This document shows, piece by piece, positions 1-4,609 of a stretch of 4,609 nt of DNA (position 1 is the first letter of the stretch; each line of letters opens with the position of its first letter). The notes under the pieces are model-generated. The model saw nothing but the letters and a program-made list of their open reading frames with translations. It searched no databases and had not been told where the DNA came from. Source of the DNA: Naegleria gruberi. Its lineage: Eukaryota. The stretch is from assembly GCA_000004985.1 (NCBI GenBank), contig GG739178.1; one strand, written 5' to 3'. The position numbers and the translations under genes were made by a program.

Positions 1-115
1 TGTCTGGAATATTTCTAGCAAAGTCGTCAATCAATTCATAATTCTTGTGTGATAGATAATAGTCTGGATCGGCAGAGAAAGGTTCAACGTTGGAATTTTT
101 GCTCTTCTTAACCAT
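1..115 (-). CDS. 5' end (start codon plus first 38 codons) of a transglutaminase-like (TGL) domain protein, paralog A. The CDS continues past the left edge of the window.
   Basis: Reverse-complementing 1..115 gives ATG GTT AAG AAG AGC ..., translating to MVKKSKNSNVEPFSADPDYYLSHKNYELIDDFARNIPD. This aligns with the N-terminus of the gene at 2936 (…KKVSLTGAPFSSDAEYYKTLRNYELADAHARNAPKD). Shared residues are KK, PFS-D, YY, NYEL, ARN-P-D, roughly 45% identity. The start context CACAAAATGG has A at -3 and G at +4. The ORF is open to the window edge. Confidence 0.55.
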   Translation of the reverse strand, partial: MVKKSKNSNVEPFSADPDYYLSHKNYELIDDFARNIPD

Positions 116-282
116 TTTGTGTTGATTTAGTTGATTTTGTTTTTTTGTTATATGTAAAATCAGAGGATGCTTCTACACTGTAAATATGAATGATTGAGCA
201 AGTTCCAAGGTTTGGATTGTTGTAAAATATTGAGGGTTCATTCCTCATAAACGTTCTATTAAGGTGGGCATGTTAAACTTTT

Positions 283-313: not shown

Positions 314-337
314 ATTTCTGAAAATCACCAAATGGGT
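314..337 (+). promoter_or_regulatory. Copy 1 of the 24-bp motif ATTTCTGAAAATCACCAAATGGGT, a candidate shared cis-element or short repeat family.
   Basis: It matches copy 2 (374..397) at 21 of 24 positions, 60 bp downstream in the same orientation. It also matches the inverted copy at 3305..3327. It sits 200-285 bp upstream of the paralog A start codon. Confidence 0.45.
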
Positions 338-373
338 ATGTTGTAAAATGTGCCCCGAAAAAGCTTTGCAAAT

Positions 374-397
374 ATTTCTGAATTTCACCAAATTGGT
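374..397 (+). promoter_or_regulatory. Copy 2 of the motif: ATTTCTGAATTTCACCAAATTGGT.
   Basis: It is a direct repeat of 314..337. The 13-nt core TCACCAAATTGGT is identical to the reverse complement of 3305..3317. Confidence 0.45.
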
Positions 398-466
398 GTT
401 CAGTTCGCAAGTTCTTCTTAGTTCATTCATTGCCTTAATATCCTTGTATCCAAAACAACAATTTTG

Positions 467-474
467 TATATAAA
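467..474 (+). promoter_or_regulatory. TATATAAA, a candidate TATA box for the plus-strand His-rich gene.
   Basis: It is a perfect TATATAAA, about 205 bp upstream of the ATG at 679. That distance is long, so it would imply a 5' leader of roughly 100-170 nt or an intron in the leader. Confidence 0.3.
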
Positions 475-678
475 TTTGTAGATATTTTCCAAGTCTCAAC
501 AGAAAAATCTTATTTTGAAACTTTCAAAATTAGAGAAATTAGAAGAGAGAAAGGCACAGGAACAGTAAACAACAAGATATTTACAAACCAGAGTCAACTT
601 GATGTTCAATGAACAATATTGGAAACGTATTTGAGAATGATTGTATAACTGATCAACAGCAATAATACAATTAAAAAA

Positions 679-846
679 ATGTCTGAACAACCAACTCAAC
701 CAGTCCAACCACAAGGTGAAGAACATAAGGAAAAGAGATGTGCCAAGCACGTTCATGGTGAAGAACACAAGCACGAAGGTGAACACGTTCATTGCAGCAA
801 GCACGTTCACGAACATGAAGTCAAGCCAGAATCTGATATGGAATAA
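679..846 (+). CDS. Small (55 aa) histidine-rich, Glu/Lys-rich protein, a putative metal-binding peptide. Translation: MSEQPTQPVQPQGEEHKEKRCAKHVHGEEHKHEGEHVHCSKHVHEHEVKPESDME.
   Basis: The ORF runs ATG(679) to TAA(844..846). It is the first ATG after an in-frame stop at 646..648. The context AAAAAAATGTCT is the classic highly-expressed fungal start context. Codon choice is strongly biased (CCA, CAA, GAA, AAG, GGT, GTT, CAC, TCT), unlike the antisense frame. The protein has 10 His in 55 residues, arranged as repeated KHVH / EEH / EH units, plus 2 Cys. AATAAA hexamers sit at the stop (842..847) and at 867..872. The six-frame track missed it because of its length. Confidence 0.6.
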   Translation: MSEQPTQPVQPQGEEHKEKRCAKHVHGEEHKHEGEHVHCSKHVHEHEVKPESDME

Positions 847-866
847 ATTTCATTACTATTAAGCTT

Positions 867-872
867 AATAAA
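867..872 (+). terminator. AATAAA polyadenylation-signal-like hexamer downstream of the His-rich CDS.
   Basis: AATAAA lies 21 nt after the TAA stop. A second AATAAA overlaps the stop itself (842..847). Confidence 0.3.
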
Positions 873-934
873 TCAGTACTTGATCGACTTTCATATTTCC
901 TATTTGTTGGTATCTATCCATCATTAATCTTATT

Positions 935-2337
935 NNNNNNNNNNNNNNNNNNNNNNNNNNNNNNNNNNNNNNNNNNNNNNNNNNNNNNNNNNNNNNNNNN
1001 NNNNNNNNNNNNNNNNNNNNNNNNNNNNNNNNNNNNNNNNNNNNNNNNNNNNNNNNNNNNNNNNNNNNNNNNNNNNNNNNNNNNNNNNNNNNNNNNNNNN
1101 NNNNNNNNNNNNNNNNNNNNNNNNNNNNNNNNNNNNNNNNNNNNNNNNNNNNNNNNNNNNNNNNNNNNNNNNNNNNNNNNNNNNNNNNNNNNNNNNNNNN
1201 NNNNNNNNNNNNNNNNNNNNNNNNNNNNNNNNNNNNNNNNNNNNNNNNNNNNNNNNNNNNNNNNNNNNNNNNNNNNNNNNNNNNNNNNNNNNNNNNNNNN
1301 NNNNNNNNNNNNNNNNNNNNNNNNNNNNNNNNNNNNNNNNNNNNNNNNNNNNNNNNNNNNNNNNNNNNNNNNNNNNNNNNNNNNNNNNNNNNNNNNNNNN
1401 NNNNNNNNNNNNNNNNNNNNNNNNNNNNNNNNNNNNNNNNNNNNNNNNNNNNNNNNNNNNNNNNNNNNNNNNNNNNNNNNNNNNNNNNNNNNNNNNNNNN
1501 NNNNNNNNNNNNNNNNNNNNNNNNNNNNNNNNNNNNNNNNNNNNNNNNNNNNNNNNNNNNNNNNNNNNNNNNNNNNNNNNNNNNNNNNNNNNNNNNNNNN
1601 NNNNNNNNNNNNNNNNNNNNNNNNNNNNNNNNNNNNNNNNNNNNNNNNNNNNNNNNNNNNNNNNNNNNNNNNNNNNNNNNNNNNNNNNNNNNNNNNNNNN
1701 NNNNNNNNNNNNNNNNNNNNNNNNNNNNNNNNNNNNNNNNNNNNNNNNNNNNNNNNNNNNNNNNNNNNNNNNNNNNNNNNNNNNNNNNNNNNNNNNNNNN
1801 NNNNNNNNNNNNNNNNNNNNNNNNNNNNNNNNNNNNNNNNNNNNNNNNNNNNNNNNNNNNNNNNNNNNNNNNNNNNNNNNNNNNNNNNNNNNNNNNNNNN
1901 NNNNNNNNNNNNNNNNNNNNNNNNNNNNNNNNNNNNNNNNNNNNNNNNNNNNNNNNNNNNNNNNNNNNNNNNNNNNNNNNNNNNNNNNNNNNNNNNNNNN
2001 NNNNNNNNNNNNNNNNNNNNNNNNNNNNNNNNNNNNNNNNNNNNNNNNNNNNNNNNNNNNNNNNNNNNNNNNNNNNNNNNNNNNNNNNNNNNNNNNNNNN
2101 NNNNNNNNNNNNNNNNNNNNNNNNNNNNNNNNNNNNNNNNNNNNNNNNNNNNNNNNNNNNNNNNNNNNNNNNNNNNNNNNNNNNNNNNNNNNNNNNNNNN
2201 NNNNNNNNNNNNNNNNNNNNNNNNNNNNNNNNNNNNNNNNNNNNNNNNNNNNNNNNNNNNNNNNNNNNNNNNNNNNNNNNNNNNNNNNNNNNNNNNNNNN
2301 NNNNNNNNNNNNNNNNNNNNNNNNNNNNNNNNNNNNN
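935..2337. other. Assembly or scaffold gap: a run of 1,403 N.
   Basis: N characters run uninterrupted from 935 to 2337. The 3' portion of the TGL paralog B gene, which runs leftward on the minus strand from 2338, is lost in it. Confidence 0.99.
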
Positions 2338-2492
2338 TACATCAACAAATCTGAGAGTACCATCATCAATTTCAATGGCATTATACTCGTGATCAGGAGT
2401 AAAATTGAATTCCTCAAATGGGTCAATTTCTGGCCCACGTCCTTTTCCTGCAATACGGAAAACATTTGGAACACCAGCTTGCTTTAAGAGAC
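2338..2492 (-). CDS. Exon 2 (partial, truncated by the N gap) of TGL-domain protein paralog B. It encodes (G)LLKQAGVPNVFRIAGKGRGPEIDPFEEFNFTPDHEYNAIEIDDGTLRFVDV.
   Basis: After the intron is removed, the frame continues from exon 1 as GAA G|GT CTC TTA AAG CAA GCT. It is open for 51 codons up to the N run. It carries the TGL LLKxAGIPAR-like segment (LLKQAGVPNVFR). It also carries the predicted catalytic His (DHEYN, about 43 residues after the Cys) and Asp (RFVDV, 16 residues after the His), matching the Cys-His-Asp spacing of the transglutaminase-like superfamily. Confidence 0.6.
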
Positions 2493-2539
2493 CTTATATA
2501 AATTTGCCTAAGATTCCATAGTGGAATAGAAGTACTTAC
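2493..2539 (-). other. Spliceosomal intron (47 nt, phase 1) in TGL paralog B. Donor is GTAAGT, acceptor is TATAAG|G.
   Basis: The minus-strand sequence reads GAAG|gtaagtacttctattccactatggaatcttaggcaaatttatataag|GTCTCTTAAAG. Unspliced read-through ends in GKYFYSTMES*, a stop inside the intron. Splicing at this acceptor restores the conserved motif GVCxxFAxLFxxLLKxAG. A 62-nt alternative with an acceptor at 2478 is also in frame but deletes LLKQ. Confidence 0.5.
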
Positions 2540-2936
2540 CTTCGAATAATCCAGCAAAACCAGTACAAACACAGGTCTTCAAGTAGAAAGCACAGAGAGC
2601 AAAATCATTATAGATCTTTTTTTCTTCTTCACTAAAGGATGGTCCCATAACTTCAGCATTATACTTTGGAAGAGTGTGATTCTTTCTATTAACCTTGTCA
2701 TAGGTAAGATTCAAGCAGAGCCAAACATAGACAGATCTGGCCTTTTCTTCAATATTATCAAAAGGGCTACAAAGATACTTGGAAGTTTCAGTGAGGGTTG
2801 GAATATCCTTTGGTGCATTTCTAGCATGAGCATCAGCAAGTTCGTAATTTCTCAAGGTTTTATAATATTCGGCATCAGAACTGAATGGGGCACCAGTAAG
2901 CGAGACCTTTTTGAATTTTGGAACAATGTCGGACAT
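2540..2936 (-). CDS. Exon 1 of TGL-domain protein paralog B (start codon at 2936..2934): a putative cysteine protease or transglutaminase-fold enzyme.
   Basis: The track ORF 2508..2936(-) starts MSDIVPKFKK…. It contains …EEKARSVYVWLCLNLTYD… (the TGL pre-core motif, AxxIYxWVxxNIxYD-like). It also contains …TCVCTGFAGLFEG (the GVCxxFAxLF catalytic-Cys motif). The start context is AAAAAAAAAATCAACAACAACAACC-ATG-TCC, with A at -3. The exon ends at a GTAAGT donor. Confidence 0.75.
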
Positions 2937-2937
2937 G

Positions 2938-2961
2938 GTTGTTGTTGTTGATTTTTTTTTT
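2938..2961 (-). repeat. Simple-sequence 5' leader immediately upstream of the paralog B ATG: A10 followed by (CAA)4 on the minus strand, which is (GTT)4..T10 on the plus strand.
   Basis: The plus strand reads GTTGTTGTTGTTGATTTTTTTTTT. On the coding (minus) strand this is AAAAAAAAAATCAACAACAACAAC directly abutting the ATG. Confidence 0.5.
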
Positions 2962-3304
2962 AAATTTTAATCCAAGAAATCAACCAAGGCATTAAGATTC
3001 TATTTAAGAACCATAGAAACATTTCAAAATCATCCAAAATTCTAGAAAGAAAATAACATGTCCATAGGGTTACATAATATGAAACAACTTGATGGAATAT
3101 CGTGGCAATCTGCAGAGTGTATAACATTTCTTGTGAGCGTGGAATTAAGGCCATGCAAAATTAACGTGTGAACTAGCTTTGAAACGTAAGGCTTCATTTC
3201 AAAAAGGTGTTTGGACAATAAAGATTAATTAATGCATGTGGTTGTTGATATGGACACAAAATTATTAAGGCAATGAAAGAACTTTGGAACAATAGGGAAA
3301 AAAA

Positions 3305-3327
3305 ACCAATTTGGTGAATCCAGAAAT
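3305..3327 (-). promoter_or_regulatory. Inverted copy 3 of the motif. The reverse complement is ATTTCTGGATTCACCAAATTGGT. It lies in the paralog B promoter.
   Basis: The plus strand reads ACCAATTTGGTGAATCCAGAAAT. Its reverse complement matches copy 2 (374..397) with one 1-nt deletion and one substitution, and the 13-nt core is identical. It sits about 370-390 bp upstream of the paralog B ATG (2936, minus strand). Confidence 0.45.
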
Positions 3328-3958
3328 ATATACTTCAGAGCTAATTTGGGGCTACAACAAACTCTCTATGGAGAACGCAGCAACATGTGGAATGGTTGAA
3401 GAGAGGCCTTTGTCTGTGTGTTATTTTGCATTAATATCACTATGACCACTATCAAAGAAGACAATTTAGGATATTGGCAAATTGATGGAATGTAAAGCAA
3501 AATATGTTGATAATGGTGATAGTAAATTCACACATTGTTTCCCGACTATCATCCACACTAAAAGTTCTACAATTAAAACTGATGGAAAATGTTGGTGGTG
3601 AATGATCCGATTATGATAATATGAAAAATAAATTCCAATTTCATGATTATCATCCTAAAACTAATAAAAATTACTATTATTACTACGAAGCAATTTATAT
3701 TTATAAAAAATCATCACATACTAGTAAACAACAATTCATGAGTATTTTTAATATTATGTGATAGATTTTTGAAACACAATTATTATTATTACTTTCAATA
3801 TCTTCGTATCTTCGTTGTCAAAATTCAAAAACAAAAAAATATTGAGGGCAATCATGTAAATACTCCTCGGAACCTCCAGTAATTTCAAAGGAGTAACATC
3901 ATTTAATTGCTGGATAAATTTCATCATCATCAACTAATCAAGTTTTCAAAATCAAAAA

Positions 3959-3964: not shown

Positions 3965-4609
3965 CTAATTAATTATAAAGATCACCAACAAGCTTGTAAT
4001 GAACACAAACAAGGCATGATAAACTCCCAAACCAGATACAAATGTTGATCCGGATACAACATATTGTTCACATCCTTTTCCAAAATATCCGACAGCACAG
4101 CTACAGGCACCAGAGACACAATTACCATGTCCATTACAAACAGTATTGTTGCTTGATGAAATTCCATTACAATATGTAATATCACACCAAGATCCTTCAG
4201 CATGGGAAGCACATGAACAAATGTTAGGTGCTGTACAATTACCATTTCCAGAGCAAACAACAGTTGAATTTGAGAAGAGAATTCCATTGCAAGTGTATTG
4301 CTCACAATTGGATCCACTATATCCTGCACGACATTCACAAGTATCGACATTGGTACAATTACCACGTGCTGAGCAAGAGTTTGGATTGTTATTGGCAACA
4401 CCAAAACAAGTACGAAGTTCACAATCACTTCCTGTATAACCAGATTTACATTCACAAACATTGAGTGATTTGCATGTACCATGTCTAGAACATACAGAGC
4501 TATTGTTATTGGCAATGCCAAAACATGACCATTGATTGTCGGCATTATTAGTATTATTAGTATTACCAGAATTGGTACCATTGTTACTATTATTAGTATT
4601 GTACTGTAT
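3965..4609 (-). CDS. 3' portion (214 codons plus stop) of a secreted or surface protein with four tandem EGF-like modules. It has an N-terminal Asn-rich low-complexity linker, EGF/tenascin-type 6-Cys repeats, and a C-terminal hydrophobic tail (likely a GPI-anchor signal or TM). The gene continues beyond the right edge.
   Basis: The reverse complement in frame 1 from 4609 gives IQYNTNNSNNGTNSGNTNNTNNADNQW-SCFGIANNNSSVCSRHGTCKSLNVCECKSGYTGSDCELRT-CFGVANNNPNSCSARGNCTNVDTCECRAGYSGSNCEQYT-CNGILFSNSTVVCSGNGNCTAPNICSCASHAEGSWCDITY-CNGISSSNNTVCNGHGNCVSGACSCAVGYFGKGCEQYV-VSGSTFVSGLGVYHALFVFITSLLVIFIIN*. It is open all the way to the window edge. There are four ~39-aa modules with the pattern C-x9-10-C-x4-5-C-x3-5-C-x-C-x8-C, ending in GY-x-G-x-x-C-E. 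Several N-x-S/T sequons are present. The final 19 residues are hydrophobic, preceded by a small-residue stretch (SGS), which is GPI-omega-like. The stop TAG is at 3967..3965. The track ORFs over this span are other frames or the antisense strand of the same DNA. Confidence 0.75.
   Translation of the reverse strand: MQYNTNNSNNGTNSGNTNNTNNADNQWSCFGIANNNSSVCSRHGTCKSLNVCECKSGYTGSDCELRTCFGVANNNPNSCSARGNCTNVDTCECRAGYSGSNCEQYTCNGILFSNSTVVCSGNGNCTAPNICSCASHAEGSWCDITYCNGISSSNNTVCNGHGNCVSGACSCAVGYFGKGCEQYVVSGSTFVSGLGVYHALFVFITSLLVIFIIN

What the first reader, a model, noticed from the sequence alone, without database searches (positions are those of the whole stretch)
314..3327. A 24-bp motif is shared by the promoters of both transglutaminase-like paralogs: twice direct upstream of paralog A, once inverted upstream of paralog B.
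ATTTCTGAAAATCACCAAATGGGT (314..337) and ATTTCTGAATTTCACCAAATTGGT (374..397) are 21 of 24 identical and 60 bp apart. The reverse complement of 3305..3327 (ATTTCTGGATTCACCAAATTGGT) shares the identical 13-nt core TCACCAAATTGGT plus the ATTTCTG arm. All three copies lie 200-400 bp upstream of the start codons of two paralogous genes, the minus-strand ATGs at 115 and 2936. There is also weak extended similarity about 20 nt to one side, CAAATTAG..CTC, in both loci. A 24-mer recurring three times in 4.6 kb by chance is very unlikely. This looks like a transcription-factor binding site, or promoter module, retained since the gene duplication, and possibly a palindromic half-site pair (ATTTCTG … CCAAATNGG). 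The 314..400 pair also sits in a divergent promoter with the His-rich gene, so it could co-regulate that gene.
Basis: seen in the sequence. Interest (0 to 1): 0.65.

Follow-up and report, generated by a model that had tools for sequence, protein, structure and literature searches.

The report
Shared upstream DNA block in Naegleria
Three copies of a 23-24-base sequence upstream of two related Naegleria gruberi genes are real and are the best-kept part of a roughly 115-base non-coding block shared by the two gene-upstream regions, most likely a binding site for an unknown gene regulator, but the genome-wide test needed to prove this could not be run.

Summary
ATTTCTG-N3/4-TCACCAAATKGGT occurs at 314-337(+), 374-397(+) and 3305-3327(-), and shuffles give none.

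The window is a whole 4,609-bp Naegleria gruberi scaffold with an N gap at 935-2337.

The 24-mer is not a free-standing motif in two of its copies. Copy A2 and copy B lie in a homologous non-coding block, 349-461(+) against 3242-3356(-). The block is 75% identical over 118 columns and holds a second perfect 15-mer, TTCATTGCCTTAATA, 27-28 nt downstream.

Nothing else in the two intergenic regions is similar beyond chance. The paralogs' coding DNA is barely similar either.

The block is inverted relative to the two transglutaminase-like genes. Simple retention since the gene duplication therefore does not explain it.

Copy A1 shares only the 24-mer, and its flanks are at chance identity. All differences between A2 and B within the motif fall in the 3-4-nt spacer. 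The core ACCAA-A-TTGGT is an 11-bp palindrome.

Best reading (confidence 0.5): an orientation-independent upstream regulatory module with a site for a dimeric factor.

Rivals are a dispersed-repeat fragment and a neutral relic of a younger local duplication. They could not be excluded, because no tool holds the N. gruberi genome.

Interest is modest.

The parts
314..337 (+). Copy A1 of the 24-mer, ATTTCTG-AAAA-TCACCAAATGGGT. One arm of the palindrome is mutated (TGGGT). Its flanks are not detectably homologous to those of the other copies.
   Evidence: (D2)
374..397 (+). Copy A2 of the 24-mer, ATTTCTG-AATT-TCACCAAATTGGT. It contains the perfect 11-bp palindrome ACCAAATTGGT at 387-397.
3305..3327 (-). 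Copy B (23 nt), ATTTCTG-GAT-TCACCAAATTGGT. The palindrome lies at 3305-3315.
349..461 (+). Homologous non-coding block, locus A. It carries copy A2 and box 2.
   Evidence: Local alignment score 78 against shuffles of mean 25, sd 3, maximum 43. 89 of 118 columns are identical.
3242..3356 (-). Homologous non-coding block, locus B. It carries copy B and box 2, and is inverted relative to block A and to the TGL genes.
426..440 (+). Box 2, TTCATTGCCTTAATA, 28 nt after copy A2.
3263..3277 (-). Box 2, TTCATTGCCTTAATA, 27 nt after copy B.
1..115 (-). First 38 codons of transglutaminase-like paralog A (ATG at 113-115). The gene runs off the scaffold end.
679..846 (+). His/Cys-rich 55-aa ORF, divergent from paralog A. 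It appears to be unannotated.
2338..2936 (-). Transglutaminase-like paralog B: exon 1 at 2540-2936, a 47-nt intron at 2493-2539, and exon 2 at 2338-2492 continuing into the N gap.

Best explanation
The 23-24-mer is the core of an upstream cis-regulatory module of Naegleria gruberi.

The module consists of:
- a composite site: ATTTCTG, a free 3-4-nt spacer, then TCACC-AAATTGGT, whose 11-bp palindrome ACCAA-A-TTGGT would seat a dimeric sequence-specific DNA-binding protein;
- a second box, TTCATTGCCTTAATA, 27-28 nt further on.

The module lies 200-430 bp upstream of the start codons. It is present once upstream of TGL paralog B. In the divergent intergenic region between TGL paralog A and the His/Cys-rich ORF it is present once, with an extra copy of the composite site 60 bp upstream.

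Because it sits in opposite orientations relative to the two TGL genes, it would act like an orientation-independent upstream activating or repressing site, putting these neighbouring genes under common control.

Shown here: the copies, their homology, their position in 5' intergenic DNA, the palindrome, and the pattern of differences. Inferred: protein binding, the regulatory effect, and which genes are controlled.
For: - The copies are real and far beyond chance.
- The block is the only non-coding similarity between the two loci, and it is more similar than the paralogs' coding DNA. The proteins are only 15/26 identical in their best N-terminal stretch.
- Copy A1 keeps 21/24 and 20/24 identity to A2 and B. 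Its 36-nt upstream flank is at chance identity, 0.50 and 0.47 against shuffled means of 0.49 and 0.47 (Fisher p = 0.003-0.004). This is what selection on the 24-mer alone would produce.
- Between A2 and B, every difference inside the motif falls in the 3-4-nt spacer.
- The core is a perfect 5+1+5 palindrome. Only 1-6% of random 24-mers of this composition contain one.
- All copies lie in 5' intergenic DNA, upstream of every upstream ATG that would spoil a 5' UTR. They are therefore upstream elements and not transcribed leader sequence.
- No RNA family, tRNA or consistent fold explains the block.
Against: - All evidence comes from one 4.6-kb scaffold.
- A2 and B are homologous by descent, so their recurrence alone says nothing about function.
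- Within the A2/B block, the clustering of identical columns is not significantly different from uniform 25% divergence (P = 0.12-0.18).
- Outside the three longest perfect runs, identity is still about 64% (computed). This suggests the block is younger than the gene duplication, so it need not be conserved by selection.
- The Fisher tests use motif borders chosen after seeing the data.
- The inverted orientation requires an extra event.
- No orthologous promoter, no other genomic copy, no transcript data and no candidate binding protein could be examined.
Confidence: 0.5

Rival explanations
1. The block is a fragment of a dispersed repeat or small non-autonomous mobile element of the N. gruberi genome. 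It landed independently, in either orientation, in two nearby intergenic regions. The 24-mer is simply its best-preserved part.
For: - The block is inverted relative to the two paralogs and is far more similar than their coding DNA, as expected for an insertion younger than the gene duplication.
- Its divergence is statistically compatible with uniform decay.
- The window is a very small unplaced scaffold, and such scaffolds are often repeat-rich (my own knowledge).
- N. gruberi does carry repeats and transposons (PMC12344493).
- The block ends share a short complementarity, TGTTGT...ACAACA.
Against: - No target-site duplication is visible at the block edges, and the terminal complementarity is only about 6 nt (read).
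- Copy A1 has the 24-mer without homologous flanks, which an element copy would carry.
- No further copy occurs in the remaining 2.9 kb of the window.
- No related sequence was found in JGI metagenomes or IMG/VR. The seven metagenome hits match the motif only.
Confidence: 0.2
2. The block is a neutral relic of a local inverted segmental duplication or ectopic conversion between the two neighbouring intergenic regions. It is more recent than the TGL gene duplication and has no function. The 60-bp repeat in locus A is a further local duplication.
For: - The two loci are about 3 kb apart on one scaffold.
- Identity is 75% with no significant clustering of matches.
- Residual identity between the boxes is about 64%, above what shuffled flanks give (0.47-0.49).
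Against: - The flanks of A1 are fully randomised while its 24-mer is 83-88% preserved. This is hard to obtain neutrally.
- All A2/B differences within the motif fall in the spacer.
- The conserved core is palindromic.
- A 115-bp inverted copy without its surroundings is an unusual product of segmental duplication.
Confidence: 0.2
3. The block is a directional, portable promoter module (upstream site, box 2 and a TATA-like element). It drives the gene it points to: the His-rich ORF in locus A and TGL-B in locus B. It does not serve TGL-A.
For: - In both loci the block points towards a gene.
- An AT-rich, TATA-like element follows box 2 at almost the same distance: TATATAAA at 467-474, 27 nt after box 2, and ATTAATTAAT at 3224-3233(-), 29 nt after (read).
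- This reading explains the inversion relative to the TGL genes without any extra event.
Against: - A start about 30 nt after these elements would give leaders of about 180 and 265 nt, carrying 3 and 10-11 upstream ATGs. That is implausible unless the leaders are spliced.
- There are no transcript data.
- The element in locus B is a poor TATA box.
Confidence: 0.07
4. The block encodes a small structured non-coding RNA present in two copies.
For: - It is a 115-bp conserved non-coding unit.
- The minus strand of block A folds better than shuffles (z = -2.6).
Against: - There is no Rfam match at E <= 1 and no tRNA.
- The corresponding strand of block B folds worse than shuffles (z = +0.9), and the two predicted structures differ.
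Confidence: 0.03

Closest known systems
Homotypic clusters of transcription-factor sites in upstream activating or repressing regions of compact eukaryotic genomes (yeast UAS type)
   Same: - Short conserved boxes lie 200-430 bp upstream of start codons.
- One locus has a repeated copy.
- The core is palindromic.
- The element occurs in either orientation.
- It sits in a divergent intergenic region shared by two genes.
   Different: No binding protein, no regulon and no expression data are known here. The copies are partly related by descent and are not independent sites.
Zinc-responsive element of S. cerevisiae Zap1, ACCTTNAAGGT (from my own knowledge)
   Same: It is an 11-bp palindrome of the form ACC-N5-GGT. 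It lies next to a His-rich ORF that could bind metal.
   Different: The central five bases are AAATT, not TTNAA. No Zap1-like factor was examined, and nothing links these genes to zinc. This is a resemblance only.
CCAAT box (NF-Y) and CArG box (MADS, CC(A/T)6GG) (from my own knowledge)
   Same: Copies A2 and B read ACCAATTTGG on the opposite strand, which contains CCAAT. The core is CC(A/T)5GG.
   Different: Copy A1 reads CCCAT, and the flanks differ from the NF-Y consensus. The A/T run is 5 bases, not 6; no CC(A/T)6GG exists in the window. Conservation also extends well beyond either box.
Miniature inverted-repeat transposable elements (MITEs)
   Same: It is a 115-130-bp non-coding unit in an AT-rich intergenic region, found in both orientations, with short complementary ends.
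   Different: There is no target-site duplication, the terminal complementarity is only about 6 nt, and copy number is unknown.

Membership tests
Transcription-factor binding site / cis-regulatory module | Lies in non-transcribed 5' flanking DNA of genes | tested here: met
   The copies lie 199-391 bp upstream of the ATGs at 115 and 2936, and 282-365 bp upstream of the ATG at 679. They are upstream of all upstream ATGs. Transcription starts themselves are unknown.
Transcription-factor binding site / cis-regulatory module | Conserved more than the surrounding neutral DNA | tested here: inconclusive
   For A1 against A2 and B, the 24-mer is 83-88% identical while the flanks are at chance (with borders chosen after the fact). 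For A2 against B, the clustering of matches is not significant (P = 0.12-0.18).
Transcription-factor binding site / cis-regulatory module | Enriched upstream of a set of co-regulated genes genome-wide, and conserved at orthologous loci | not testable with these tools
Searches found no orthologue of TGL-B or of the His-rich ORF.
Transcription-factor binding site / cis-regulatory module | Specific binding by a protein | not testable with these tools
   This needs EMSA or DAP-seq.
MITE / dispersed repeat | Terminal inverted repeats and a target-site duplication | tested here: not met
   The ends show only about 6 nt of complementarity (TGTTGT/ACAACA), and the block edges have no duplicated flank.
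MITE / dispersed repeat | Many copies scattered through the genome | not testable with these tools
   The window holds only these copies. Metagenome, viral and prokaryotic scans give motif-only chance hits.
MADS-box CArG box | CC(A/T)6GG | tested here: not met
   The window has no CC[AT]{6}GG. The core is CC[AT]{5}GG.
NF-Y CCAAT box | An invariant CCAAT pentamer in every functional copy | tested here: not met
   A2 and B carry CCAAT on the opposite strand, but A1 reads CCCAT.
Zap1-type ZRE | ACCTTNAAGGT | tested here: not met
   The outer ACC...GGT and the 11-bp length match, but the centre is AAATT.
Known structured RNA families (Rfam) / tRNA-derived elements | A match to a covariance model, or a tRNA fold | tested here: not met
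   There are no matches at E <= 1 and no tRNA. The folds of the two copies disagree.

The most novel reading that the evidence does not exclude
The palindrome ACCAAATTGGT, with its ATTTCTG companion, is the operator of a Naegleria-specific dimeric transcription factor. That factor controls a small regulon joining transglutaminase-like cysteine-protease-fold proteins with an unannotated His/Cys-rich, probably metal-binding, peptide. This would be a metal- or stress-responsive circuit similar in layout to the fungal Zap1/ZRE system. It would be one of the first defined cis-elements in Heterolobosea.
Probability: 0.1. Interest if true: 0.55.

Novelty: new member of a known kind. Interest (0 to 1): 0.3.

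Why it matters
To my knowledge, very few cis-regulatory elements have been defined in Naegleria or any heterolobosean. If the site is real, a 24-bp composite site with a clear palindrome would give a handle for DAP-seq or pull-down of its factor. It would also define a regulon that may include an unannotated His/Cys-rich peptide. If it is a repeat fragment, it is ordinary. As it stands, it is a reasonable but unproven candidate resting on a single small scaffold.

Tried and rejected
1. Reaching the rest of the N. gruberi genome. Exact-protein look-ups failed for the His-rich ORF, for P0001 and for the N. gruberi paralog P0003.
   - Only a metagenome contig from a relative, carrying the P0003 orthologue at 87% identity, was obtained (L001).
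   - It has no motif copy above chance. Because it belongs to a distant paralog, this says little.
2. Looking for orthologues.
   - The word-index search with spliced TGL-B found only its own gene model.
   - The His-rich ORF found nothing.
   - The exhaustive HMMER search found only distant relatives, at most 40% identity.
3. Scanning public collections for ATTTCTGN{3,4}TCACCAAATKGGT.
   - JGI metagenomes gave 7 loci: one bacterial-type sequence, and one gene-poor non-coding locus seen in six related contigs, probably a plant or moss host. Neither is similar beyond the motif.
   - IMG/VR gave 0.
   - GTDB genomes gave 14 scattered motif-only hits.
   - All of this is at chance level.
4. Non-coding RNA reading. 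It was rejected.
5. A decayed second His-rich gene between block B and TGL-B. No similarity was found.
6. Literature searches. Searches for Naegleria promoter motifs, for the core sequence, for transglutaminase, for histidine-rich proteins and for repeats gave nothing specific.
7. The prokaryotic promoter/terminator scan does not apply to a eukaryote.
Full report
**What the window is**

The exon-1 ORF at 2508-2936(-) is 100% identical to a 142-aa 'predicted protein [Naegleria gruberi]' whose longest contig is 4,609 bp. The window is therefore an entire small scaffold of the N. gruberi assembly. It has an assembly gap of N at 935-2337.

Gene content:
- **TGL-A.** Transglutaminase-like paralog A is on the minus strand, with its ATG at 113-115. 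Only 38 codons lie before the scaffold end.
- **His/Cys-rich ORF.** A 55-aa ORF lies at 679-846(+). Its GC is 44%, against 25-29% in its flanks.
- **TGL-B.** Paralog B is on the minus strand, with its ATG at 2934-2936. Exon 1 is 2540-2936, a 47-nt gtaagt...ag intron is 2493-2539, and exon 2 runs into the gap.
- **EGF-repeat protein.** The 3' part of an EGF-repeat membrane protein lies at 3965-4609(-).

The spliced TGL-B product aligns with the 393-aa N. gruberi protein P0003 across the splice junction, including the Cys, His and Asp positions (37% identity, E = 9e-43). P0003 carries the transglutaminase-like family PF04473. Paralog A matches paralog B at 15/26 residues, E = 2e-9.

**The observation**

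All three copies are at the stated coordinates with the stated sequences.
- The 24-mer with up to 3 mismatches is found twice, against 0.00 in 200 shuffles.
- The 13-mer TCACCAAATTGGT with up to 2 mismatches is found at the three sites plus a palindromic self-hit, against 0.19 expected.
- As an outside baseline, ATTTCTGN{3,4}TCACCAAATKGGT occurs 14 times in 596 Gb of prokaryotic genomes, and there only the motif itself matches.

The true palindrome is ACCAA-A-TTGGT, at 387-397 and 3305-3315. Only 1-6% of random 24-mers of this composition contain a 5+1+5 or 5+5 palindrome.

Copies A2 and B are embedded in a longer homologous block.
- 349-461(+) aligns with the reverse complement of 3242-3356. 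The score is 78, against shuffles of mean 25, sd 3 and maximum 43.
- 89 of 118 columns are identical.
- The block holds a second perfect 15-mer, TTCATTGCCTTAATA, at 426-440(+) and 3263-3277(-). It lies 28 and 27 nt after the first box.

Outside this block, no part of the two intergenic regions is similar beyond chance. The first 115 nt of coding sequence of the paralogs are barely similar too (score 22; shuffles mean 16, maximum 27). The block is therefore either much younger than the gene duplication or strongly constrained.

Both TGL genes are on the minus strand, yet block A matches the reverse complement of block B. The block is thus inverted relative to the genes. In locus A it points to the His-rich ORF, and in locus B it points to TGL-B. 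Each block lies on the same contig as its TGL gene, so this does not depend on how the two contigs were scaffolded.

**Evidence bearing on function**

In favour of constraint on the 24-mer:
- Copy A1 keeps 21/24 and 20/24 identity with A2 and B. Its 36-nt upstream flank aligns at 0.50 and 0.47 identity, exactly what shuffled flanks give (0.49 and 0.47). The A2/B flank is above chance, at 0.60 against a 95th percentile of 0.53.
- If A1 arose by a 60-bp tandem duplication, its flank has been randomised while the motif was kept.
- Between A2 and B, every difference inside the motif, including a 1-nt length change, falls in the 3-4-nt spacer between ATTTCTG and TCACC.
- The core is palindromic.

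Against:
- Within the A2/B block, the clustering of identical columns is not significant (P = 0.12 for the two longest runs, 0.18 for the sum of squared run lengths).
- Identity outside the three longest runs is still about 64%. Plain decay of a moderately young copy therefore cannot be rejected.
- The Fisher tests use borders chosen after seeing the data.

**Position relative to transcription**

On the relevant strands, upstream ATGs lie at:
- 602, 609 and 637, before the His-rich ATG;
- 241, 248 and 271, before the TGL-A ATG;
- eleven positions between 2992 and 3237, before the TGL-B ATG.

The mRNA starts are therefore probably close to the start codons. The motif copies would then be upstream elements and not leader sequence. 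This is an inference, as no transcript data were available.

An AT-rich, TATA-like element follows box 2 at nearly the same distance in both loci: TATATAAA at 467-474, and ATTAATTAAT at 3224-3233(-). This keeps alive a 'directional portable promoter' variant. That variant would, however, require long leaders rich in upstream ATGs.

**Other readings tested**

- RNA: there is no Rfam match at E <= 1 and no tRNA. The folds of the two blocks disagree, and only one of four strands beats shuffles.
- Mobile element: there is no target-site duplication, and the ends have only about 6 nt of complementarity.
- Dispersed repeat:
  - The window has no further copy.
  - Metagenome and viral collections hold no related sequence. 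The seven metagenome loci are one bacterial-type sequence and one gene-poor non-coding locus seen in six contigs, both similar only at the motif.
  - These collections do not contain the N. gruberi genome, so the decisive copy-number test was not possible.
- The genome could not be reached through exact-protein look-ups.
- No orthologue of TGL-B or of the His-rich ORF exists in the protein databases searched.
- The one contig obtained from a Naegleria relative (L001) carries a distant paralog. It has no motif copy above chance.

**Comparison with known sites** (consensus sequences are from my own knowledge)

- The core is CC(A/T)5GG, not the MADS CArG box CC(A/T)6GG.
- CCAAT is present on the opposite strand of A2 and B but not of A1.
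- The ACC-N5-GGT form resembles the yeast Zap1 zinc-responsive element ACCTTNAAGGT, but the centre differs.

None of these memberships is met, and the binding factor is unknown. The literature searches found no described Naegleria cis-element of this sequence.

**Verdict**

| Reading | Confidence |
|---|---|
| Orientation-independent upstream regulatory module with a palindromic site for a dimeric factor | about 0.5 |
| Dispersed-repeat fragment | about 0.2 |
| Neutral relic of a younger local duplication | about 0.2 |
| Directional portable promoter | about 0.07 |
| Small structured RNA | about 0.03 |

This would be a new member of a known kind and is of modest interest. A single genome-wide scan would settle most of the uncertainty.

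Noticed in passing
window 679-846 (+): The 55-aa His/Cys-rich ORF (two CxKHVH units, with internal 18-39-nt DNA repeats) has no counterpart in the 5.8-billion-protein database and no exact-gene record. It seems to be unannotated in N. gruberi. Its GC is 44%, against 25-29% in the flanks, which suggests it is coding.
   Followed up: partly
window 2493-2539 (-): The public gene model for TGL-B (P0001, 142 aa) reads through a 47-nt gtaagt...ag intron into a stop codon. The spliced product continues into the gap and aligns with P0003 across the junction, including the catalytic Cys, His and Asp.
   Followed up: yes
window 3143-3157 (-): A degenerate third copy of box 2 (TGCATGGCCTTAATT, 3 mismatches) lies 120 nt from box 2 of locus B, in the same orientation. 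It is not significant on its own, since 0.36 such hits are expected by chance.
   Followed up: partly
window 467-474 (+) and 3224-3233 (-): AT-rich, TATA-like elements (TATATAAA and ATTAATTAAT) follow box 2 at nearly the same distance, 27 and 29 nt, in the two loci.
   Followed up: no
window 224-236 and 3836-3848 (+): The exact 13-mer AAAATATTGAGGG is shared by the TGL-A upstream region and the DNA just downstream of the EGF gene. It is roughly at chance level for AT-rich DNA.
   Followed up: no
window 360-377 (+): Three overlapping 8-bp palindromes (AAAGCTTT, TTTGCAAA, AAATATTT) lie immediately upstream of copy A2. They are not conserved in locus B.
   Followed up: no
window 3965-4609 (-): This is the C-terminal part of an EGF-repeat protein with an Asn-rich stretch and a C-terminal hydrophobic helix. 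The DNA shows a 117-120-nt periodicity.
   Followed up: partly
P0002: A 4,333-aa protein matches residues 34-75 of the TGL-B N-terminal region in 22 separate stretches. It is a giant repeat protein built from this segment.
   Followed up: no
L003-L008 (e.g. L004 2799-2821): One gene-poor non-coding locus, seen in six contigs from related JGI metagenomes and probably from a plant or moss host, carries the exact 23-mer. It also carries a second ACCAAATTGGT about 590 bp upstream. No other similarity to the window exists, so this is taken as chance.
   Followed up: partly
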